Positions 41,369 to 62,772 of a DNA stretch of 64,000 nucleotides are shown piece after piece. The DNA comes from a virus. The stretch lies in IMG/VR virus record IMGVR_UViG_3300045988_084999; one strand, written 5' to 3'. The position numbers were made by a program, and so were the translations under genes. The stretch's first letter is position 1. Every line of letters begins with the position of its first letter. The notes below the pieces were generated by a model. It was not told where the DNA came from and did no database searches. It saw only the letters and a program-made list of their open reading frames with translations.

Positions 41369-41881
41369 TTACTCAAGGTCGATTACATAATTCTCTTGGA
41401 TAAATGAATCTTCTGGAATATAGATGGTATACTCGGTAGACCATGGCCCAAGCAGGAAATTCAAAACTGGGTTTTTAAAACGGATTTTGTTTTCTTCTAT
41501 GTATGGGGCATCATCTGTATTCTTAATATAGGACTGATCTGCCTCAATAGATTTGGCGGTTATACCTTTATCTGTTTGATACAGGAATGAGTAATAGAGC
41601 CCATCTTCTGTATAATAACGGCCTACGTAAGAACTAAAATTATCACTCAAAGCAGTAATAGAATATGTTTGAGTGGTTTTTGCAGAATAAGTTGCAGGTT
41701 CAATAAAAATAACAATACCACAAATTATAATCGCAAATAAGAAAGCGATAAACGCTGAAAGTACAACTCCGAGAATTGTAGAGAATAGATATTCTGCAAA
41801 AGAGTCACAGTCTTTATATAATACTATAAGCGATGTAACCATGAGTAATATAAAGAATCCAATAGCTAATGGCATGAGCAA
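41369..41881 (-). CDS. Membrane protein (two N-terminal TM helices)
   Basis: MLMPLAIGFFILLMVTSLIVL… and AFIAFLFAIIICGIVIFI. Confidence 0.4.
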   Translation of the reverse strand: MLMPLAIGFFILLMVTSLIVLYKDCDSFAEYLFSTILGVVLSAFIAFLFAIIICGIVIFIEPATYSAKTTQTYSITALSDNFSSYVGRYYTEDGLYYSFLYQTDKGITAKSIEADQSYIKNTDDAPYIEENKIRFKNPVLNFLLGPWSTEYTIYIPEDSFIQENYVIDLE

Positions 41882-42051
41882 AACCTCTTTTCTTATTTAT
41901 ATAAATATATTACCATATTTTATTAAGATACGCAAGTAAATCTTATGGATTATAACGAACCGTCATAATTTCTCACGGATGCGGGAATTTTTTAGGCAGA
42001 GAAATTGGCAATCCCGCGGTAATTTTAATAAAATGGTCATAGAGGTATTTT

Positions 42052-42135
42052 TGTCCAAAATTTTCTAACGAGTGTCCAAAAATTTCTAATAAAGTGTCCG
42101 ATTTTTTCTAATGACTTGTCCAAAATTTTCTAATG
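42052..42135 (+). promoter_or_regulatory. Four direct repeats of TGTCCAAAATTTTCTAA (operator-like) upstream of a plus-strand RHH-regulator gene
   Basis: Copies at about 42052, 42074, 42099 and 42117, spaced about 22 nt apart. Confidence 0.45.
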
Positions 42136-42244
42136 GATTGATTGTTCTATTGTTTATAATTTTAGAAAAAAGTTTAACAAATTTTAGGACAAAACCAGAA
42201 AATTATGTTATAATAAAAGTAAAGAATAGTAGAGAGGTGATTTT

Positions 42245-42388
42245 ATGAATTATTCCACTGTTTCTGTTAGATTAACAGAGGAAGAGAAGAAAGATTTGGA
42301 AGTCTTTGCTAAGAGTTGTGATTTAACAATGTCTTAGGTAATTAGAAAGGCTGTTAAAGAATATATTGAGAAAAATAAAATAGACTAA
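42245..42388 (+). CDS. Ribbon-helix-helix (CopG/Arc-like) DNA-binding protein with one in-frame TAG
   Basis: MNYSTVSVRLTEEEKKDLEVFAKSCDLTMS-TAG-VIRKAVKEYIEKNKID. RBS AGAGAGGTG. Confidence 0.4.
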
Positions 42389-42403
42389 AGGAGATTAAAC
42401 TAA

Positions 42404-42625
42404 ATGACTAATGATACTTATAAAGTTTTTACGGTAAAGTTAGCACGCAAACTTTGTGATCTTGGTTTTATTATTGTTGGAACTGTTCCTAATGTTTAGA
42501 AACCTTGGTTAAATGTTTATCTTTTTGAAGATAGTTAGGATTTAAGGGATGCAGTTTAGAAGTATAAAGGGATAAGTTCGCTATTGGAGGATGATTGCCA
42601 TGGCAGACAAAAGAAGAAGTCCTAA
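42404..42625 (+). CDS. Hypothetical small protein with 3 in-frame TAGs
   Basis: MTNDTYKVFTVKLARKLCDLGFIIVGTVPNV-TAG-KPWLNVYLFEDS-TAG-DLRDAV-TAG-KYKG…. Confidence 0.3.
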
Positions 42626-42989
42626 TTAGCGAACTATTAATCATATTCATAAGGAACCATGTGATACTAATAATATATATGCTAGGATTAATAAGGAAGC
42701 GTTATTTGCGGCCCGTAGAGAGTTGACAGATGGAGAGTTCTCTTTGTGGATATTTTTTGCTAGTCAATCTGAGAGGTTAACTGATTATGATTTTGGGCCT
42801 ACTATTATAGAAAAAGAGCTTGGTATAAAGAGAGCGAAATATACAAGTGCAGTAGATGGATTGGTAAAAAAGGGATATTTAGTTCCAGTTGAGAGAAAAG
42901 GATATTACGATTTTTACGAGATTCCTATTGATAGTGACGACGATAAGTATAATTATATAGCTCCAGATGGAGAGAAATTTTCTTTTTAA
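42600..42989 (+). CDS. Putative replication-initiator/winged-helix protein adjacent to iterons (contains TAG)
   Basis: In frame with ORF 42723..42989 (…ARRELTDGEFSLWIFFASQSERLTDYDFGPTIIEKELGIKRAKYTSAVDGLVKKGYLVP…). Functional call by context only. Confidence 0.3.
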
Positions 42990-42994
42990 TCGTA

Positions 42995-43260
42995 TTTCTG
43001 CAATACTATGAAAAATTTCATGTATTTCTGAGAATACTATGATTTCATCATATTGTGAAAAAGCTATGAAATTTTCATGTATTTGTTGGAAAGCGATGAA
43101 ATTGTTTTCATGGTATTCTGATAATACTATGAAATTAAATAAAAAGGATTTTCATAGCTTTCCAACAATACCATGTCATAGTATTCTGACAATACCATGA
43201 AAGTAAATAAAAATCCATTTCATGGTATTCTGACAATACAACAAATATAACATATATTAG
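42995..43260. repeat. Iteron-like repeat block (AATACTATGAAA and CATGGTATTCTGACAATAC motifs, each recurring several times); candidate replication origin
   Basis: The motifs ttcatgtatttctgagaatactatga, catggtattctgataatactatgaaa, catagtattctgacaataccatgaaa and catggtattctgacaatac all fall within about 270 nt. Confidence 0.45.
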
Positions 43261-43332
43261 ATAACAGAGTTAAGATAACAGTCGCGACTTTTTTATGTAT
43301 TTGTGAAAAAGCGATGAGTAGGAGGATTAAGG

Positions 43333-43723
43333 CATGGAAGTATTTAAACCGATTAAGGTAGAAAATTATCAATTCATGAAGAATGGATTAAATTAGTATG
43401 AACCAGTATTAGTTTACTTTAAAGATGATGAAGAAGAAGGCAAGGTATATTTTGTAAAGAATAAATTTGATGATAAGTTAGAAGAATGGATGGAAGAGAA
43501 TTTAAAGGTAGAAGGAAGAAGTAGAGTTATAGTAGATAAGTATCATAATAGGATAAGTATAGATGTTTTTACTCAAGATTTAGAGGACTCTATAACCGAT
43601 TTAGAAAAACGAATTGAAAAGTTAGAAGAAGGTTTTAGAGAAATCGAATTGAAAAATCGAGATAAAAATGGAGAGATATATGATTTGGTTGGAAGGATAA
43701 GAGAGATAAATAGAACTGGATAG
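43333..43723 (+). CDS. Hypothetical protein with one in-frame TAG
   Basis: MEVFKPIKVENYQFMKNGLN-TAG-YEPVLVYFKDD… is in frame with ORF 43490..43723. Confidence 0.35.
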
Positions 43724-43803
43724 AGATGTAGATTATCTTTATATGAAGATTGAAAGAAATTAAAGGAAATTAAAAGAAGTTTATAAAATGATGGAGTTGG
43801 GTG

Positions 43804-45122
43804 CCGATCGGGTCTAGGTACGAACCATCACAACACTCGTCACAACGATCGTAAACCTAGCCTTCCGCGATTATAATATATATAAAAAAGGAGAGAAGCT
43901 ACAATACTTCTCTCTCCTTTAATCTTTTTCCTCTTGTTACTTTAAATGCTTCAAAAACTCCATAATACTATCTTCATCAGACTTAGTATTACCCTTAACC
44001 TGAGGCACACTCTTTGCGAGAGCATCAGAAATAGAGTCAACAGCAATGTCAATTACTTCATCAAGACTCTTTGCATTGACTACTCGAGCGGAAGTCTTAG
44101 CAGTTACAGTCATAGCCTGCATAAACTGCTTAATATCATTTGCTGTCCACTTAGGATTGCTCTTGCTATAAACCAGCGCAGCTACACGACCAACGTCATC
44201 CTCAGTGAGAGACAAATCATCAACATTGCCATAAAAAGTAGACTCAATCTCATCCAGAAGAATATCTCGTTCATGGTCTGCGGCGTTAGCCTCGGAGATT
44301 CTATTCATAGCATCAGTAAATGCCTTTGCAATCTCCTCCTGAGTAGAACCATTCTGCATTGCATCACGAATCATAATCTCATAACTATTCATAATAAGTT
44401 CTTTTAGTTAGAAAAAGCGTTATGATGCTTCTTAAACTAAAATCCTCCTTTTCTTTATCTTATGTATATATTATATTATATTTTTTATATATTGTCGAAC
44501 CGATCGGGTCTAGATAAAAAGATCGCTTTAACGGAATCCCGCGGAAAAGATTTTTCCTTTTCAAATAGTTAGCAACATCTTTACTATTGTTTGCTGTATC
44601 TTTAATGGTTTTAATTCTGTGAATATCAAGAAATTTTGAGAAAAACGAGGCATTTTTTGCTTATTTTTAAGTAAATTTGTTAGAAAAACGCGCATTTTTG
44701 CAAGATTTTAGAGGTTTTTTGTTATATTTTGCGATAACAAGAGGTAAAAGATCGCGGGCCGATCGGTTTATCTAGCTAAAATCTCTATTTTTGAGCTATT
44801 TTTATCATAAAATCGTGTTAAACCGATCGGTTCCGCGAAAGAAATCTCTGGTCGTATTTGTTTTTCATAGCTATATCTTTGCTATTGCTAGTTGTATTTT
44901 AGAAAGTTTTGGTACTGTGAATACTTGACAATTTTAAGATTTTTATTATAAAAAATTGGACGAGAGAGCCAATATTGCTGGACCGATCGGAACTAGATAA
45001 AGAAAGAAGTAAAGTAGGGCCGATCGGTGTTTGAAAGATGGCGTTATGAATTTTGGGAAAATTGCTATGAAGTTGCGTTATGGCCAAGTTGCTATGAAAA
45101 TTTTGCGCTATGGTCCGATCGG
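43804..45122. repeat. Array of seven copies of the 8-bp GC palindrome CCGATCGG (several extended as CCGATCGG-n-TCTAGATAAA) in the largest non-coding stretch
   Basis: Copies at 43804, 44500, 44759, 44823, 44983, 45020 and 45115. The genome is about 33% GC, so this is strongly non-random. Confidence 0.5.
43937..44392 (-). CDS. Hypothetical protein
   Basis: 151 aa, with promoter motif upstream. Confidence 0.35.
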   Translation of the reverse strand: MNSYEIMIRDAMQNGSTQEEIAKAFTDAMNRISEANAADHERDILLDEIESTFYGNVDDLSLTEDDVGRVAALVYSKSNPKWTANDIKQFMQAMTVTAKTSARVVNAKSLDEVIDIAVDSISDALAKSVPQVKGNTKSDEDSIMEFLKHLK

Positions 45123-45206
45123 GGAAATTCGGGCCGAGTCGCCCGCGACCGGCCCGTCGAGTTTAGAAAATATAAAATAAAAAGAGAGGCCAAAGCCTCT
45201 CTTTTC

Positions 45207-45458
45207 TTAATCCTCGTTTTCTAAATTGATTTCTCCTATACAGTTACACCGTATCGGAGATTCAAAAACAAATTCATCTCCATATCCAACGATAGTTATT
45301 TCTCCATACTTTTTACAATACTCGTCTATCTTTTCGATTAGACTATTCCAATCTTTCTCTTGCGCTTTTTGTTTTCTAAGTGCCACTTCTTTATAGGCGG
45401 TAGCACTCAACCATTGCAACTCCTCATCATTCAGTTTGTTGAAATCAATATCAACCAT
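45207..45458 (-). CDS. Hypothetical protein
   Basis: 83 aa. Confidence 0.3.
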   Translation of the reverse strand: MVDIDFNKLNDEELQWLSATAYKEVALRKQKAQEKDWNSLIEKIDEYCKKYGEITIVGYGDEFVFESPIRCNCIGEINLENED

Positions 45459-45964: not shown

Positions 45965-46118
45965 ATTTTTGGGAGAAAGTCAAGCTGTCAAGTTGCACAA
46001 ATTTTCAATTCAAAATTGTTGAAAATGACAATAGAAGAAAAAATCGGACCGCGGCGCACGCAAGCGGCCCGCCCAAAATTTTGCGTAAAAAAATCTCCCC
46101 ATAAGGGGAGATTTTTCT

Positions 46119-46525: not shown

Positions 46526-46843
46526 TTATTTCTTCGGCTTACGCTTTTGTACAAGCGTCAACTCGAAACTATCCCCACCAATAGAAAACGCAATCTGTCT
46601 TTCTTTGTTAGTAATAGACAAGTCAGCGATAGAGAATTGACTGTTTTTTTCCAAAAACTCTGCCAATTCCGCAATTATACCGCCTTTCGTGGCGTTTGGC
46701 TTGCGTTGCCGTGTAGTGAACTTATATGCGGTTGGCTGTTTGCGCGTTCCAGCATGGGCAAACTTTTGAGCGATTTTCGCCTTTTCTGGCGGTAAATCGT
46801 ATTCAGTCTTTTTATCAGCCTCTACCGCCTTATCATAGGCCAA
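46526..46843 (-). CDS. Basic hypothetical protein
   Basis: 105 aa. Confidence 0.3.
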   Translation of the reverse strand: MAYDKAVEADKKTEYDLPPEKAKIAQKFAHAGTRKQPTAYKFTTRQRKPNATKGGIIAELAEFLEKNSQFSIADLSITNKERQIAFSIGGDSFELTLVQKRKPKK

Positions 46844-47392: not shown

Positions 47393-48122
47393 CCTTTCTG
47401 GTTTTTAGGACTGTCCTTGTCCTTTGATTATATTGTACCACACTATTTGGTACTTGTCAAGAGGTTTTTCAAACTTTTTTCAAGAACTTTTGCCCTTTAC
47501 TTGTTTGCCCTCTCAACCTCCCTTATAGTGTAACACACTTTGGAAAGTTTGTCAAGCCCTTTTTATTTAATTTTCAAGGTACATTGCCTTGTTTTCTGTA
47601 CTTATTATAGCACATCTTCAAAGGCTTGTCAAGAGGTTTTTGAAAGATTTTTGAGAAATTCGCTGTCACTGTCTGCCGTTCGTCTCTCTCACTTTCTGAA
47701 TGTATTTTACCACAAGCAAAAGCAGATTGCAAGCGTCGAATTGCACAAAAAATCGGAATTTTGGGAGAGAGTTTTTGTGCAAAATTCTGCACAAAAACGG
47801 GACGAAATTTTTGTGCAACATTACCATTGAAAAATTCGGCCCGCGTCAGCCATCCGCGGGCCGTCGACCTTTTAGATATAAAAAAAAATAAGAGGGCTGT
47901 AAAGCCCTCTTAAATATCAATCATATAACTATAAACCATATCCCAAAGCGGCATATCATCCAGAAGGATATTTACAGTCAAAAGTCCGGTTTCTGTCGGC
48001 CCATCAACAAACCATCCCAGCCGCTGCATAAGGTGAATAACCTCATAGACATAATCGGGGTCAAGATGGTTAGTGGTAAACTGTCTTGAAAACATTTCTT
48101 TTCCTTTCTATCGGGCGGGGCT

Positions 48123-57995: not shown

Positions 57996-58416
57996 CTGGA
58001 TTAAGCCTCCAAGGGTCACTAGTATCGTAATCAATCATTTCATAGAAAGATATTTCATTTTCATTAACTTCTAATACCTAGTGAGGAATACACTATACTT
58101 CATAGTCAAAATCTTTATTAATATGGTAAGAAGTATATATATGAATAGCAATAGGTCTAGGATCATTAACTCCCTAAATATCCCATAAACTTATTGCTTT
58201 ATTTTGGAAGATTTCCTAAGCATACTATGGAGATATAGCAATACTGATTATTAAGATATTAAAATAATACTATGCTTTTTTCGGTAAATCTAAATATGGT
58301 TCGTCAAAGAACATTGGCAAACAAATCTCCTATCTTATTTTTTATAATTATATTATAACATTTTTAAATAAATTAATCAAATAAGATTTGACAATCTAGT
58401 TTTTTTTTGTTATTAT

Positions 58417-59487
58417 ATGAGTATAAAAGGAGATGACAGTATGATAAAATTAGATTATACTATTGAGTCTCCAGAAGAACGGAAGGCGCTTGTCGAAAAA
58501 ATAATCGCAGAAAATCCGAACCTTAGTTCGAGTTATTTAGAAATATTAGCAGATTATTTAGTTCTATGTATGGAAAAGCAAGAGAAGAAAGAAAAGAATA
58601 TATTAACAGATAATAGAATGGCTACTGTTAATAAAAGAGAATGTTCTTTCGAAGGGCTTGCGTCATAGATGGAAAATGGCGAGGATGGCATTTATGGTTT
58701 AATGTCAGAAAATAAAAATGTTATATTTTAGCCAAAGATTTCTATTACACAGAAAGATTTAGATACTATACCATGTTTAAAATAGTTGAGAGAAACCATT
58801 AATGTCTGGGAGGGCGCTTTAAAACGCGCTGCTGGGACAAAATAGGCATATATGATGAAAAAAGCATTAATAGAGATGCGAAAAGATTAGTATATCATTA
58901 AGCAAGCATATTAGAAACCTATTATACCATGTAAATTAACGAGATCCGTAAGAACTCATATTCCTCTTGATGATTAGAGTTATCTTAATGGACAGGAGGT
59001 AGTAGTAAAGGGTATTTCGCTAATGGACGCCAATGTTGTTTCTGCTATTTTATGCAATTATTCAAAATTAAAAGAAGATAGTTATGATTAGTTTGAGGGA
59101 GATACATGGTATTTAATTCAATCATTTGAAGAAATATGTGATAAAGCTCTCAAAGACTTTCCAATCTATTTACGAATTGTTGAACTCAAAATTGATAAAA
59201 AGTAGAATAACGAAATATAGGAAATATTAAAAAATGAGTTTGGTAAAACATATAGCGTTGAATATATTTCTAGCCTATGGAGAAATAAGATTCCTAAACT
59301 CATTGCGGAAGAAGCTTTAGAAGATTTTTTACGTTGGTAGTATAAACAAAAAGGATACCCAATGAAAAAATGTTCTAAGTGTGGGCAATTAAAGCCAGCC
59401 CATAATCAATTCTTTTCAAAGAATAAGACAAGTAAGGATAATTTGTATAGTATCTGTAAGCGCTGTCGCAATAAGAAAAGAGGTTGA
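58417..59487 (+). CDS. Late-operon hypothetical protein with C-terminal zinc ribbon; about 12 in-frame TAGs; ends at TGA
   Basis: The frame of ORF 58417..58668 is continuous through the TAGs to …CSKCGQLKPAHNQFFSKNKTSKDNLYSICKRCRNKKRG-TGA. Sigma-A-like promoter (TTGACA…) at about 58391. Confidence 0.4.
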
Positions 59488-59493
59488 TTATAA

Positions 59494-60663
59494 ATGAGCC
59501 ATTATTGTAAAAAATGTGGTAAAACTATGGATGATAAATAGTTTTATACATCAAAAAATTTAGAGAAGTATCCTCCAGATGGAAAGATGGATATTTGTAA
59601 AAAGTGTCTTACTATGCACGTAGATAACTGGGATCCAGAAACTTATAAATGGATTTTATAGGAGATTGACGTTCCATATATTAAAGAAGAATGGAATGGT
59701 TTATTGGAGAAATATGGAAAAGATCCAAAGAAAGTTACTGGATTAACTATTATTGGACGCTATTTATCTAAAATGAAATTAAAGCAATGGAATAAATACA
59801 CTTGGGCAGATACAGAAACGCTAGAGAAAGATTCCATTGATAAAAAAGTTCTTAATATGAAGGCTCAAGGATTTACAGAAGATGAAATTCAAGAGCAGTT
59901 GTCTATTGATAGAACTCCTCCAAAACCAAAAGAATTAGAGGATGTTTAGGCCCCTGTAGGAACTCCAGAATATGAAGATCCAGAGGAAGATGATGATTTT
60001 GGTGATTAGCTAACCGAAGAAGATAAATTAGTATTACGTCTTAAATGGGGCCGCGGATATTCTTGGGAAGAAAGAGTAAGAATGGAGCAGCTTTATAATG
60101 ATATGATGAGTTCTTATGATATTCAAGGAGCAGGTCATAAAGATACTCTTATTATGGTATGTAAAGCTAGTTTAAAAGCAAATTAGTTAATTGATGCTGG
60201 AGATATTGATGGCTTTTAGAAGATGCAAAAAGCCTATGATAGTTTAATGAAAAGCGGCAAATTTACGGCTGCTTAGAACAAAGGCGAATCCGGTGAATTT
60301 GTAGATTCAATAGGTGAATTAGTAGCCCTTTGTGAAAGAGAGGGTTTTATTCCTAGATATTATACGGAAGGGCCACAAGATAAAGTAGATAGAACTCTTT
60401 AGGATTTACAGCAATATACTCATACTCTAGTTACAGAGGAAATGAATCTTGGTAATATGATCGAAGCTTCGTTAAGAGAAATAGTTAAAGACAGAGAACG
60501 CGAGGCAAATATTGATGTTGAAGATAGCGATGAGGATGAAGATTTATTTAATTACGAGCATCCAGAATTAACAGAAGAAGATTATCAAGAGTATGAAGAT
60601 ATGAAAGAGTCGGAAAGAGACAAAGATGAGGAAATGTTAAATAATATATTAAAGGAGGTTTAA
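59494..60663 (+). CDS. Hypothetical late protein (possible terminase small subunit or packaging accessory) with multiple in-frame TAGs
   Basis: MSHYCKKCGKTMDDK-TAG-FYTSKNLEKY… is in frame with ORF-track pieces 59704..59949 and 60442..60663. Confidence 0.35.
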
Positions 60664-60666
60664 TAT

Positions 60667-62412
60667 ATGGCATTAAAAGATTTATTAAACCTTTCAAATA
60701 ATAATAAGAAAATTGGTCTTTCCGAAGAAAGAGTTCGTGCGATAATTCCAGCAGCAAGATAGTATATAGCTTTTTGGAGAGAATATCCAGATATGTTTAT
60801 TGACTTTTTGTAGACCGGCGGAGACGAGACAAGAAAAAAAGAAATTAATTTTTATTTTTATTAGAGAGTTTTCTTGCGGGCGGCCATGAGATATAAGTAT
60901 GTATACATGGTATTTCCCCGTGCTTATTCTAAGTCATTCTTATCAGTAATGGTACTTATGTGTAGATGTATATTATATCCTGGATGTAAGCTATTCATTA
61001 CTTCTGGCGGAAAAGAATAGGCAGCAGGTATTGCAAAAGAAAAAGTCTAGGAAATTTGTAATGCGATTCCCGCACTTTAGAGAGAGATTGATTGGCGAAG
61101 AGGTAAGACTTAGGAAGGAAAAGATTATTGTAAGTATATCTTCAAAAATGGATCTTATTTTGACAACGTCGCGGCTAGAGAATCTTCTCGTGGTAAGCGT
61201 AGACATGGAGGATTAATTGAGGAGTGCGTTGGTGTAGATGGAGATATTTTAAATGAAGTTTTAATCCCTCTAATGAACGTTGATAGAAGATGTTTAGACG
61301 GATCTGTTCATGAAGAAGAAACACTTAATAAATCTTAGATTTATGTAACTACTGCGGGGTGGAAAAACACATTCCCATATAATAAGTTGATTACTTTGCT
61401 AGTGCGCATGATACTAGAACCCGAAAAGAGTATTGTAATGGGCGGAACATGGAGAATTCCTGTGCTAGTGGGATTGCAATCCCGCAACTTTGTATAGGAG
61501 TTAAAACAAGATGGTACATTTAATGAAGCATCATTTGATAGAGAGTATGAATCTAAATGGAGTGGCACCGTAGAAGATGCCTTCTTTAATGGTGATGCTT
61601 TTGATAGAAGTAGAAAATTGCTTTAGCCTGAATATGAATCTTCCGGGCGCTCTTCTGCTCAAGCATATTATGTTCTTTCTGTTGATGTAGGAAGAAAGAA
61701 ATGTCAATCTGTTGTATGTGTATTTAAAGTAACCCCTCAGTCTCAAGGACCAGCGATTAAGTCTCTTGTTAATATATATACTATGGATGATGAACATTTT
61801 GAAGATTAGGCAATTAAGCTAAAAAGATTATATTATGATTATAAAGCTAAAATTATTGTTATTGACGGTAATGGACTTGGTGCTGGATTGATGGATTATA
61901 TGGTTAAACCACAAATAGTGCCAGATACCAATGAAGTTTTTCCTGATTTTGGTGTAGCTAATGATGAAGATGGAGAATACAAACGATTTAGAACAGATAA
62001 TACAGAATATGATGCTATTTATGAAATTAAGGCAAATGCGCCAATTAATACCGAAGCCCATAGCAATGTTTAGACATAGTTGCGGGCTGGAAAGTTAAGA
62101 TTTTTAATCGACGAAAAAGTTGCTAGAAATAAATTACTTGGTACCAAGAAAGGTCAAGCCATGAAACCAGAAGAGCGGGCAGAATATTTAAAACCATTCA
62201 CTTTAACTTCTATATTAAGAGAAGAAATGCTAAATTTGCGAGAAGAAAATGAGGGTGTAAATATTATTTTAAAACAGGCAAATAAGTCTGTGCCCAAAGA
62301 TAAATTCTCTGCGCTTGAATATGGATTATATTATATTAAATAGGAAGAAGATAGTAAACGCAAGCGTAAAAGTAGAAGATTTTCAGATTTTATGTTTATG
62401 AGTGAGGTGTGA
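60667..62412 (+). CDS. terL: Terminase large subunit with about 14 in-frame TAGs; ends at TGA
   Basis: A single frame was verified codon-by-codon from ATG 60667. It has an ATPase Walker A-like motif VFPRAYSKSF, a nuclease-domain motif KIIVIDGNGLGAGLMDYM, and the DNTEYDAIYEIKANAP… segment. ORF-track pieces 61888..62073 and 62080..62343 lie in this frame. Confidence 0.65.
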
Positions 62413-62415
62413 GAT

Positions 62416-62772
62416 ATGAAGGCCAGTCGTGGAGAAATTAAAATTCATGAGATATTAGAGCAAAATGGCATGAACTTTAAAGAAGAGTATGAGTTTCCTG
62501 GGCTGAAAGCACCAAGTGGTAGGCCACTTCGTTTTGATTTTGCTGTTTTTGATGATGATGGAAATCTTGATTTTTTAATTGAGTATCAGGGTAAATAGCA
62601 TTATTAGGCTGTTAGTAAATTTGGTGGAAATAGAGGATTATACCAATAGAAATATAATGATAATCAAAAGCGTAGATTTTGTGCATTAAAAGGTATTACC
62701 CTCATTGAAGTTCCCTATACGGAGGAAAATATCATCTCTTATGATTATTTAATGAGTAAAGCTGGATATTAA
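62416..62772 (+). CDS. Small PD-(D/E)xK-like (Vsr/DUF559-like) nuclease with 3 in-frame TAGs
   Basis: …RFDFAVFDDDGNLDFLIEYQGK-TAG-HY… is in frame with ORF 62416..62598. Confidence 0.35.

What the first reader, a model, noticed from the sequence alone, without database searches (positions are those of the whole stretch)
43804..45122. Seven copies of the GC-rich palindrome CCGATCGG, clustered in the major non-coding region, with a TCTAGATAAA half-site
Seven precisely spaced occurrences of an 8-bp GC palindrome within 1.3 kb are far from chance in a genome of about 33% GC. Several copies have the composite form CCGATCGG-(N1-2)-TCTAGATAAA. This could be a centromere-like (parS-type) site, a secondary origin, binding sites for a phage regulator, or a packaging-related signal. 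A GC-rich island (45115-45165) follows.
Basis: seen in the sequence. Interest (0 to 1): 0.6.

Follow-up and report, generated by a model that had tools for sequence, protein, structure and literature searches.

The report
Conserved palindrome array in phage cassette
Seven exact copies of the 8-base palindrome CCGATCGG mark a roughly 1.4-kb early-gene control region shared by a broad group of uncultivated large gut phages; they most likely bind an unidentified regulator, and are not a plasmid-type centromere, a replication origin or a packaging signal.

Summary
CCGATCGG occurs 9 times in the window (0.29 expected), 7 of them in 43804-45122.

It is also conserved. A lineage whose surrounding DNA is only 58-78% identical keeps every copy it covers. 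About a dozen further lineages with no BLAST-detectable similarity share the same architecture:
- a small acidic-protein gene bracketed by palindromes;
- sigma-70-type promoters;
- a fixed-spacing core of GC hairpin, CCGATCGG, CATATG, CTAGC, CATATG and TTTCCCGAAA.

The site is a bare 8-mer and very strict: flanks carry almost no information, and cassettes hold 105 exact sites against 11 one-mismatch sites. The TCTAGATAAA "half-site" is not conserved. The GC island is a hairpin with compensatory base changes.

One palindrome abuts the -35 of the acidic gene's promoter in most lineages; others lie in promoter spacers or about 20 nt downstream of a -10. My best reading is operator sites for an unidentified, highly specific regulator of early promoters (confidence about 0.4). 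All candidate binders (RHH, three wHTH or basic proteins) failed co-occurrence tests.

No ParA/ParB, DnaA boxes, plasmid relatives or nearby terminase support the other readings. The cassette is undescribed, so I call it a new variant of a known kind. Interest is moderate.

The parts
43804..43811 (.). Palindrome #1 (CCGATCGG). It lies 3' of the cassette gene, beyond the bidirectional terminator, and brackets the gene together with #2.
   Evidence: The equivalent copy, preceded by GGTGG, is present in L060, L047, L022 and L061.
43828..43851 (+). Two tandem 12-mers, TCACAAC(A/G)(C/A)TCG. The TCGTCAC(C/A) motif next to palindrome #1 is conserved in other lineages.
   Evidence: ATCGTCACCGT-type motifs follow palindrome #1 in L060, L047, L022 and L061.
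43890..43915 (.). Bidirectional intrinsic terminator. It ends the 151-aa gene on the - strand and the converging TAG-containing module on the + strand.
   Evidence: It folds at -16.1 kcal/mol with z = -3.5.
43937..44392 (-). Cassette gene for a 151-aa acidic (pI 4.5), all-helical protein of an orphan family. It contains no in-frame TAG.
   Evidence: The family has 89 clusters at 50% identity. The AF2 model has pLDDT 90 and six helices. There is no PDB or viral fold match and no Pfam, PHROG or NCBIfam hit. pI.
44470..44498 (-). Sigma-70-type promoter of the cassette gene (TCGACA-17-TATAAT, 11 of 12 matches).
   Evidence: The homologous promoter, with a palindrome abutting its -35, occurs in at least 8 lineages.
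44500..44507 (.). Palindrome #2, ending 1 nt upstream of the -35 of the cassette gene's promoter. This is an operator- or activator-type position, centred at about -41.
   Evidence: offset -32 from the -10 start in win, L022, L063, L085 and L154; -31 in L031 and L061; -33 and -34 in L035 and L154.
44759..44766 (.). Palindrome #3. The flank GCGGGCCGATCGGTTTATCTAGCTAAAA is conserved in the diverged L012 lineage.
44823..44830 (.). Palindrome #4.
44925..44972 (.). Overlapping promoter-like sites. On the + strand, TTGACA-16-TATAAA (44925-44952), with the TTGACA conserved in L012. On the - strand, TTGGCT-16-TATAAT (44972-44945).
   Evidence: The - strand site is. The + strand site was read from the sequence and is conserved in the alignment.
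44983..44990 (.). Palindrome #5 (deleted in relative L009).
45020..45027 (.). Palindrome #6, the outer edge of the conserved core unit (mutated in relative L011).
45037..45114 (.). Core-unit motifs at fixed distances from palindrome #7: TTTTGGGAAAAT (45051-45062, offset -64) and five GC(N0-2)TATG(G/A) boxes. In other lineages these are two GCATATG boxes at about -49 and -13, plus CTTCTAGC.
45115..45122 (.). Palindrome #7, the terminal copy, always 7-9 nt from the GC hairpin.
45130..45156 (-). The conserved GC hairpin (the 'GC-rich island'). It has a constant span of about 26 nt and on the - strand is followed by GAAUUUCC.
   Evidence: It folds at -21 kcal/mol. Six of 9 pairs show compensatory changes, 0 of 500 shuffles reach the observed covariation, and the slide control peaks at 0. 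The 95 nt from 45072 to 45165 are 100% identical to L012.
45179..45206 (.). Strong terminator ending the upstream - strand early genes, immediately before the hairpin.
   Evidence: It folds at -18.6 kcal/mol with z = -3.7.

Best explanation
The seven CCGATCGG copies are functional recognition sites that punctuate a conserved early-transcription control cassette of about 1.4 kb. The cassette belongs to a broad clade of uncultivated, TAG-recoded phages of roughly 100-400 kb, probably infecting Clostridia.

Shown:
- The cassette comprises a small acidic-protein gene with a near-consensus sigma-70 promoter, further sigma-70-type promoters, and a fixed-spacing core (GC hairpin, CCGATCGG, CATATGCAAAATTTTT, CTTCTAGC, CATATGG, TTTTCCCGAAA).
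- The 8-mer itself is under strong purifying selection.

Inferred:
- A dimeric, highly sequence-specific DNA-binding protein, not yet identified, occupies these sites.
- Where a site abuts a -35, lies in a spacer, or sits at about +15, binding would block RNA polymerase or modulate it.
- The sites bracketing the gene and flanking the hairpin would let the protein hold the whole cassette in one nucleoprotein complex and shut early expression off, or time it.

The GC island is a separate element. It is a structured hairpin that marks the start of early transcription units in these phages, acting as a terminator/attenuator or a 5' stabiliser.
For: - Enrichment: 9 copies against 0.29 expected.
- Conservation: all six copies covered by L012 are intact where the flanking DNA is 58-78% identical. 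The rough chance of that is 4e-8 to 7e-6.
- Same architecture without BLAST similarity in L043, L060/18/35/58, L047/19/37, L022/24/50, L061, L063, L065, L072/73/79/89, L074, L087, L154, L223 and L225.
- Fixed motif offsets relative to the terminal palindrome.
- 105 exact sites against 0.17 expected in 25.7 kb of cassettes.
- RNAalifold finds no helix other than the hairpin, so the remaining blocks are conserved as primary sequence.
- The palindrome abuts the -35 of the cassette gene's promoter in at least 8 lineages, lies inside the promoter spacer in L072/73/79/89, and lies +25 to +35 from the -10 start at other promoters.
- 19 of 105 sites fall in these windows against 4.3 expected at random (0 of 2000 permutations).
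- Lineages L062 and L221 keep the cassette and hairpin but lack the palindrome. A swappable protein site would behave this way.
Against: - No binder was identified. The RHH, wHTH136 and basic105 proteins all fail presence/absence or helix-variant tests.
- Only 19 of 105 sites (1 of 7 in the window) sit next to a strong consensus promoter. The windows were defined from the same data, and the lineages are not independent.
- The site is stricter than most operators (a 10:1 ratio of exact to one-mismatch sites), has no flanking information, and shows no helical phasing between copies.
- An 8-bp site is short for an HTH dimer.
- No expression or binding data exist.
Confidence: 0.4

Rival explanations
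1. RNA-level element. CCGAUCGG is self-complementary, so copies within early transcripts could pair with each other, within one RNA or between RNAs, to organise, dimerise or process those transcripts. It would work together with the 5'-proximal hairpin.
For: - The 8-mer is extremely strict and its flanks are uninformative. This is expected if every copy must pair with every other, because compensation would be impossible.
- There is no helical phasing.
- In 8 lineages a consensus promoter fires directly into the hairpin, with CCGAUCGG 7-9 nt after it.
- The hairpin clearly functions in single-stranded form.
Against: - RNAalifold finds no conserved helix involving the palindromes.
- Distances between copies vary from 19 to about 700 nt.
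- Some copies sit in promoter spacers or directly against a -35.
- Copy #1 is separated from the rest by a terminator.
- Promoters between palindromes point in opposite directions in different lineages, so no single transcript contains all copies.
Confidence: 0.15
2. Replication origin or origin-auxiliary region. Strong promoters would provide transcriptional activation or R-loop priming (as at T4 oriF/oriG, T7 or lactococcal c2-type origins), with the palindromes binding an initiator.
For: - It is the largest conserved non-coding block in the region and more conserved than the neighbouring genes.
- It is AT-rich and contains several promoters.
- It lies next to a wHTH gene followed by an iteron array (42591-43300). 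That module is swapped as a unit in L001.
- Conserved neighbours include a DnaQ-like exonuclease.
Against: - No DnaA boxes.
- The palindromes are not phased direct repeats.
- The cumulative GC-skew minimum and the divergent strand switch are at about 58 kb, not at 44-45 kb.
- The adjacent iteron module is lineage-specific while the palindromes are not.
- The module next to it is written with TAG codons, which suggests late rather than early expression.
Confidence: 0.1
3. Recombination or module-exchange sites. The palindrome would be the core of a site used by a recombinase or nuclease, promoting inversion or exchange of the promoter and gene modules it flanks.
For: - In L003/L005 and L007/L008, homology with the window breaks about 14 nt outside palindrome #1 and directly after the hairpin.
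- The gene plus palindrome #1 is inverted relative to the cluster in L043 and L223.
- Promoters between palindromes have opposite orientations in L047 versus L022 and L060.
- An exact 8-bp palindrome is enzyme-like in its strictness.
Against: - No recombinase or nuclease gene is linked to the cassette.
- Close relatives are collinear, with no inversion polymorphism.
- Other module breakpoints (42031 and 43321 in L001) are not at palindromes.
Confidence: 0.07
4. Centromere-like parS sites for a partition system of a plasmid-like prophage.
For: - There are multiple copies of a short palindrome in a non-coding region.
- A conserved neighbouring wHTH protein has weak fold similarity to TubR, among many other wHTH proteins.
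Against: - No ParA deviant Walker box and no convincing ParB signature appear in the window's ORFs.
- No partition NTPase was found among the conserved neighbours.
- The cassette gene has no homolog on 72,556 plasmids.
- The sequence is unrelated to known parS.
- The phage has a virulent-type layout, with a tRNA array and early and late blocks.
Confidence: 0.04
5. Packaging (pac/cos) signal or genome terminus, possibly regulated through GATC methylation like the seven GATC hexamers of the P1 pac site.
For: - There are seven GATC-containing repeats in a GATC-depleted genome.
- Six independent assemblies end 160-710 nt beyond the cassette gene.
Against: - Those contig ends fall inside tandem-repeat arrays that break short-read assemblies, and the window itself reads through.
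- The terminase-like gene is 15.5 kb away.
- No Dam-type methylase motif appears in the window's ORFs.
- The commonest site variants change the central GATC rather than the CCG/CGG arms.
Confidence: 0.03

Closest known systems
Phage operator arrays, especially the 'stoperators' of mycobacteriophage L5 (recalled from memory, not tested)
   Same: Many copies of one short, nearly invariant site. Some lie at promoters and others inside transcribed non-coding DNA downstream of promoters. This is consistent with one protein controlling several early transcription units.
   Different: Stoperators are 13-bp, asymmetric and orientation-dependent. About 30 copies are scattered across the whole genome of a temperate phage, and the repressor (gp71) is known. 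Here the site is an 8-bp perfect palindrome, confined to one cassette, in apparently virulent large phages, and the binder is unknown.
MetJ met-box and other RHH operators (Arc, CopG, omega) (recalled from memory)
   Same: An 8-bp palindrome is the size read by one ribbon-helix-helix dimer. An RHH gene with a conserved (S/T)-x-(R/K) beta-strand is syntenic with the cassette in about 8 lineages.
   Different: Met-boxes and omega heptads occur as directly abutting tandem copies. Here the copies are isolated, 19-700 bp apart. Presence of the RHH does not track presence of the palindrome.
Early regions of SPO1/SP82-type Bacillus phages (recalled from memory)
   Same: Dense arrays of strong host-sigma-A promoters driving small early genes, with conserved stem-loops in the early transcripts (RNase III processing or 5' stabiliser elements). 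This resembles the promoter-proximal GC hairpins seen here.
   Different: No 8-bp palindromic site is known there, and there is no sequence or protein homology. The present phages also recode TAG.
P1 pac site (seven Dam-methylatable GATC hexamers) (recalled from memory)
   Same: Seven GATC-containing short repeats clustered in one place.
   Different: The P1 pac site spans 162 bp inside the pacA terminase gene. This cluster spans 1.3 kb, lies 15.5 kb from the terminase-like gene, and is interleaved with promoters and a gene. No methylase was found.
ParB-parS centromeres
   Same: A repeated palindromic site in non-coding DNA.
   Different: No partition genes, no plasmid relatives, a different sequence and length, and sites overlapping promoter elements.

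Membership tests
ParABS / type I-III partition centromere | A linked partition NTPase (ParA, ParM or TubZ) and a centromere-binding protein gene next to the repeats | tested here: not met
   No deviant Walker A (KGGxGK[ST]) and no convincing ParB signature in 258 window ORFs. The one GE[RK]R match lies in a Ro-like RNA-binding protein (phrog_850). Neighbour proteins give no Par hits in Pfam, PHROGs or NCBIfam. The conserved neighbours are a wHTH, a basic 105-aa protein and an exonuclease. Only 64 kb of a roughly 145-kb genome was available.
ParABS / type I-III partition centromere | Occurrence on plasmids or plasmid-prophages | tested here: not met
   tblastn with the cassette protein against 72,556 plasmids gave no match.
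Iteron-type replication origin | Phased direct repeats (about 17-22 bp) bound by an adjacent Rep protein, plus an AT-rich unwinding element and often DnaA boxes | tested here: not met
   The palindromes are 8 bp and 19-700 bp apart, with no helical phasing. DnaA boxes are at background and none lies in the cassette. A separate true iteron array exists at 42990-43300 next to a wHTH gene, but it is lineage-specific.
Iteron-type replication origin | Coincidence with the GC-skew minimum or a strand switch | tested here: not met
   The cumulative GC-skew minimum and the divergent gene switch are at about 58 kb. The skew here largely follows gene orientation, so this test is weak.
Transcription-factor operator array | A palindromic or repeated site under purifying selection | tested here: met
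   All copies are conserved in L012/L031 against a 58-78% identical background. There are 105 exact sites in 20 lineages against 0.17 expected.
Transcription-factor operator array | Sites overlapping or abutting core promoter elements or the early transcribed region | tested here: inconclusive
   This holds for the cassette gene's promoter in at least 8 lineages, for spacer sites in 4 and for about 10 downstream sites. In total 19 of 105 sites fall in such windows against 4.3 expected at random. Most sites are not beside a strong promoter, and the windows were chosen after seeing the data.
Transcription-factor operator array | An identified cognate DNA-binding protein that co-varies with the site | tested here: not met
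   RHH47, wHTH136, basic105 and wHTH132 were all tested by presence/absence or recognition-helix variation, and none tracks the palindrome.
Intrinsic terminator (for the GC island 45130-45156) | A GC-rich stem-loop maintained by compensatory change | tested here: met
   It folds at -21 kcal/mol. Six of 9 pairs have changes on both sides, 0 of 500 shuffles reach the observed score, and the slide control peaks at 0.
Intrinsic terminator (for the GC island 45130-45156) | A run of U directly after the stem | tested here: inconclusive
   On the - strand the stem is followed by GAAUUUCC or GAGUUUC/GAUUUUC (3-4 U). There is no U run on the + strand. In 8 lineages a promoter sits immediately upstream, so the hairpin would be at the 5' end of an RNA.
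Dam/GATC-regulated cluster (P1 pac or oriC type) | GATC as the selected core, plus a cognate methylase | tested here: not met
   No DPPY or NPPY methylase motif appears in the window's ORFs. The commonest near-variants (CCGACCGG x4, CCGAACGG x2) destroy GATC but keep the CCG/CGG arms. Methylation itself is not testable here.
Known RNA families (Rfam) | A match to a curated covariance model | tested here: not met
   Nothing but tRNAs and a tmRNA reaches the gathering threshold in the window. In 41800-45400 there are only sub-threshold chance-level hits.

The most novel reading that the evidence does not exclude
The cassette is a previously unrecognised master control locus of a large clade of TAG-recoded gut phages. 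An invariant self-complementary 8-mer, together with a promoter-proximal structured hairpin, acts by an unconventional mechanism. That could be RNA-RNA pairing between early transcripts. It could also be recognition by a factor translated only after the code switch, since the converging regulator module is written with TAG codons. Either would couple early-gene shut-off to the phage's change of genetic code.
Probability: 0.15. Interest if true: 0.75.

Novelty: new variant of a known kind. Interest (0 to 1): 0.5.

Why it matters
These phages are abundant, uncultivated, 100-400-kb gut viruses that switch genetic code during infection, and nothing is known about how their gene expression is timed.

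A conserved cassette with an exact 8-bp site, defined promoters and a covarying hairpin gives a concrete, testable handle on their early regulation. The pieces are short enough for pull-downs, reporter assays and transcript mapping.

The cassette is also a compact sequence signature for recognising this phage group in metagenomes (TATG-N2-7-CCGATCGG-N0-2-AAANTCG followed by a GC hairpin).

The orphan acidic protein that always accompanies it is probably one of the first and most strongly expressed phage products. That makes it a candidate host-takeover or anti-defence factor.

Tried and rejected
- **Known RNA:** Rfam found nothing at the gathering or permissive thresholds.
- **Hidden coding under TAG-as-sense translation:** there are no conserved ORFs in 44400-45200.
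- **Genome terminus:** the recurrent contig ends turned out to lie in tandem-repeat arrays.
- **All IMG/VR CCGATCGG clusters as analogues:** the 9- and 27-nt periodic arrays are collagen-like Gly-Pro-Ile-Gly coding repeats, and several GC-rich hits are unrelated.
- **Genome-contig scan:** mostly chance matches. Only a few contigs of about 148 kb, binned with Eubacterium, Oscillospiraceae, Roseburia or Clostridia MAGs, were relevant.
- **wHTH136 as binder:** I predicted that 'SK' recognition-helix variants would lack the palindrome. L225 refuted this.
- **RHH as binder:** refuted as a simple rule by an HMM tally.
- **The acidic protein as binder:** pI 4.5 and an orphan helical fold.
- **Helical phasing of sites:** absent.
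- **An extended motif beyond 8 bp:** absent.
- **DnaA boxes:** absent.
- **Literature:** a search for CCGATCGG returned only incidental oligo matches. The phAss-1 paper describes a similar phage type but not this cassette.
- **Searches that failed technically:** The search for related loci with the family alignment and with P0136 gave nothing usable.
Full report
**1. The observation**

CCGATCGG occurs at 43804, 44500, 44759, 44823, 44983, 45020 and 45115. Two further copies (3203 and 56423) lie inside coding sequence. The total of nine compares with 0.29 expected from dinucleotide-preserving shuffles. One-mismatch variants are at background and none falls in the cluster. The looser pattern CCGNNCGG adds nothing within the cluster.

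GATC is depleted 2.2-fold across the window (112 found, 249 expected), so the ten GATCs in this 1.3 kb are retained against a genome-wide trend.

The span is not all non-coding. A 151-aa gene (43937-44392, - strand) lies between copies 1 and 2. Copies 2-7 occupy a 760-bp stretch with no plausible ORF in either genetic code.

The composite CCGATCGG-NN-CTAGATAAA exists at only two copies. The spacing is not periodic.

**2. The genome**

The window comes from a large phage. It carries 30 tRNAs, a tmRNA and a CTA-anticodon suppressor tRNA. Relatives in IMG/VR and other assemblies are 98-148 kb.

The + strand genes at 42245-43753 and 58417-62772 contain in-frame TAGs, for example 'MSqVIRKAV' in an RHH protein and 14 TAGs in the terminase-like gene. 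The - strand genes between about 33 and 57 kb contain none. This matches the early-standard-code and late-recoded pattern described for gut phages (bioRxiv 10.1101/2021.08.26.457843; PMC10607447).

No GenBank phage or plasmid carries the region or its proteins.

**3. Conservation**

Close relatives (94-98% identity) keep the copies, and the non-coding block is at least as conserved as the flanking genes.

The informative comparison is with L012/L013/L031. Their cassette protein is 46% or 32% identical and the non-coding DNA is 58-78% identical, yet all six palindromes that L012 covers are intact. The 95 nt spanning copy 7 and the GC island are 100% identical. The chance of six 8-mers surviving at that divergence is roughly 4e-8 to 7e-6. 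The CTAGATAAA flank is lost at copies 2 and 5.

**4. A widespread cassette**

I searched IMG/VR by architecture (three spaced palindromes) and then by a core pattern. Protein-guided look-ups added more loci. Together these found about a dozen lineages with no BLAST-detectable DNA similarity to the window but the same layout:
- a palindrome and TCGTCAC-type repeats;
- a bidirectional terminator;
- a gene of about 150 aa for an acidic protein;
- that gene's sigma-70 promoter with a palindrome against the -35;
- further consensus promoters and palindromes;
- a terminal unit.

Motif positions in the terminal unit are fixed relative to the last palindrome. TTYGGGAAA is at -64 to -66, GCATATG at about -49 and -13, and the hairpin starts at +14.

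Other CCGATCGG arrays in viral contigs are collagen-like GPIG coding repeats and are irrelevant.

The acidic protein family has 89 clusters at 50% identity. It is all-helical (pLDDT 90), has pI 4.5, and has no fold or family match.

Two lineages, L062 and L221, keep the cassette and the hairpin but lack the palindrome.

**5. The GC island**

It is a hairpin spanning about 26 nt in every lineage (-21 kcal/mol). Six of nine pairs show compensatory changes. None of 500 shuffles reaches the observed covariation, and the slide control peaks at zero.

RNAalifold supports no other helix in the unit, so the other blocks are conserved as primary sequence.

In eight lineages a perfect TTGACA-17-TGnTATAAT promoter on the - strand fires directly into the hairpin. 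The window lineage has a strong terminator there instead.

Similar 'hairpin + GAAUUU(U)' units occur at 46060-46100 and 47840-47880 in the window and four times in L225, with other downstream motifs. The hairpin is therefore a generic early-unit element of these phages, acting as a terminator/attenuator or a 5' stem-loop. It is not specific to the palindrome.

**6. What the palindrome looks like as a site**

Across 98 distinct sites the flanks carry at most 0.28 bit per position. Inside cassettes there are 105 exact and 11 one-mismatch sites, against 0.17 and 4.75 expected. The commonest variants alter the central bases. Adjacent spacings show no helical phasing.

Relative to strong sigma-70 promoters the sites fall into classes:
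- abutting the -35 of the acidic gene's promoter (at least 8 lineages, including copy 2 here);
- inside the spacer of the hairpin-proximal promoter (L072/73/79/89);
- +25 to +35 from the -10 start.

Nineteen of 105 sites fall in these windows against 4.3 expected at random (0 of 2000 permutations). However, the windows were chosen from the same data, the lineages are related, and most sites are not beside a strong promoter.

**7. Looking for the binder**

Conserved neighbours are a 105-aa basic protein (46526-46843), a 136-aa protein and a DnaQ-like exonuclease. The C-terminal half of the 136-aa protein is a winged helix of the PerR/MarR/ArsR/TubR type (pLDDT 87).

- Both small proteins are also present in palindrome-less L221.
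- My prediction that 'SK' recognition-helix variants would lack the palindrome was refuted by L225, which has seven copies.
- An RHH gene heads the converging TAG-containing module in about eight lineages and has a conserved (S/T)-x-(R/K) strand.
- A profile-HMM tally shows the RHH is absent from palindrome-bearing L001/4/6, L019 and L225, and present in palindrome-less L221.
- The 132-aa wHTH with its iterons is clearly conserved only in the window and L031/L090 lineages, with a weak match in L082. It is swapped for a different wHTH-plus-iteron module in the 97%-identical L001.

No binder can be named.

**8. Other readings**

- **parS:** no ParA or convincing ParB signatures, no plasmid relatives, and an unrelated sequence.
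- **Origin:** no DnaA boxes and no phased repeats, and the skew minimum and strand switch are at about 58 kb. The adjacency to an iteron module and the promoter density keep a minor role possible.
- **Packaging or terminus:** six assemblies end near the cassette, but inside tandem repeats. The terminase-like gene is 15.5 kb away.
- **RNA pairing:** this fits the strictness and the lack of flank information, but not the promoter-embedded copies or the opposite promoter orientations.
- **Recombination sites:** some homology breakpoints and inversions coincide with cassette edges, but no recombinase is linked and close relatives are collinear.

**9. Verdict**

The finding is a real, strongly selected element. 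It is a strict 8-bp palindrome distributed through a conserved early-transcription control cassette of an undescribed, widespread clade of TAG-recoded large phages.

The best-supported mechanism is binding by a highly specific regulator that controls the cassette's promoters, above all that of the acidic-protein gene. The binder is unidentified and the mechanism is inferred, not shown (confidence about 0.4).

I rate it a new variant of a known kind, of moderate interest.

Noticed in passing
window 13470-32996 (- strand); tmRNA 24829-25149; tRNA(CTA) 14529-14604: An array of 30 tRNA genes plus a tmRNA and an amber-suppressor tRNA (anticodon CTA, which ARAGORN calls 'Pyl').
   Followed up: partly
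window 42245-43753 and 58417-62772 (+ strand): In-frame TAG codons occur only in + strand modules. Examples are 1 in the RHH, 3 in the DUF5659-like protein, 14 in the terminase-like gene and 11 in a sigma-factor-like gene. The - strand block at 33-57 kb has none. TAG alternates with CAG/CAA at the same conserved Gln of the RHH in different lineages, which confirms TAG = Gln.
   Followed up: partly
whole window: GATC is 2.2-fold under-represented (112 found, 249 expected). This suggests pressure from a GATC-specific host restriction system.
   Followed up: no
window 42990-43300: An iteron-like array (GTATTCTGAnAATACyATGAAA, in both orientations) lies directly downstream of a 132-aa wHTH gene (42591-42989). 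It is a plausible initiator/origin or repressor/operator module.
   Followed up: partly
window 42052-42135: Four 22-bp direct repeats (TGTCCAAAATTTTCTAATGAG) lie upstream of the RHH gene. They probably form the autoregulatory operator of the TAG-containing module.
   Followed up: no
L001 3856-4809 versus window 42031-43321: In a 97%-identical relative, the RHH/DUF5659/wHTH/iteron module is replaced by a different 212-aa double-wHTH gene (12 TAGs) with its own iterons. L019 carries a similar type-2 module. This looks like cassette-style module exchange.
   Followed up: partly
window 47440-47890 (- strand): Three tandem extended -10 promoters (TCTTGACAAG...TGnTAnAAT) lie upstream of the 136-aa wHTH gene. 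They are preceded by a GC hairpin plus GAAUUUUU and by TTGCACAAAAA / TTTTTGTGCA repeats. The same TTGTGCA-type units recur four times in L225.
   Followed up: partly
window 45072-45165: A 95-nt block is 100% identical between the window and L012/L031, although the surrounding DNA is 58-78% identical. This indicates either extreme constraint or recent gene conversion.
   Followed up: partly
L008-L011 ends, L005 and L007 ends: Independent assemblies end in tandem arrays next to palindrome #1, either a unit of about 17 bp (TATTTTATCAATTTCTAC) or the wHTH iterons. This makes the region an assembly-breaking, hypervariable spot.
   Followed up: yes
window ~58300-58420: The cumulative GC-skew minimum coincides with a divergent switch from - strand standard-code genes to + strand TAG-recoded genes (sigma-like factor, phrog_3314, terminase-like). 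This is a better candidate than the cassette for a replication origin or the early/late boundary.
   Followed up: no
window 11706-13226 (- strand): A 506-aa protein matches phrog_850 'RNA-binding protein' (E = 8e-120). It sits beside the tRNA array.
   Followed up: no
L016, L015, L034, L046 (other viral contigs): CCGATCGG arrays with 9- or 27-nt periodicity are collagen-like Gly-Pro-Ile-Gly coding repeats. They are a source of false positives for this motif.
   Followed up: yes
L141, L165, L150, L154 (genome contigs): Cassette-bearing contigs of about 148 kb are binned into Eubacterium, Oscillospiraceae, Roseburia and Clostridia MAGs. This fits the TTGACA/TATAAT promoters and suggests Clostridia hosts.
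   Followed up: partly
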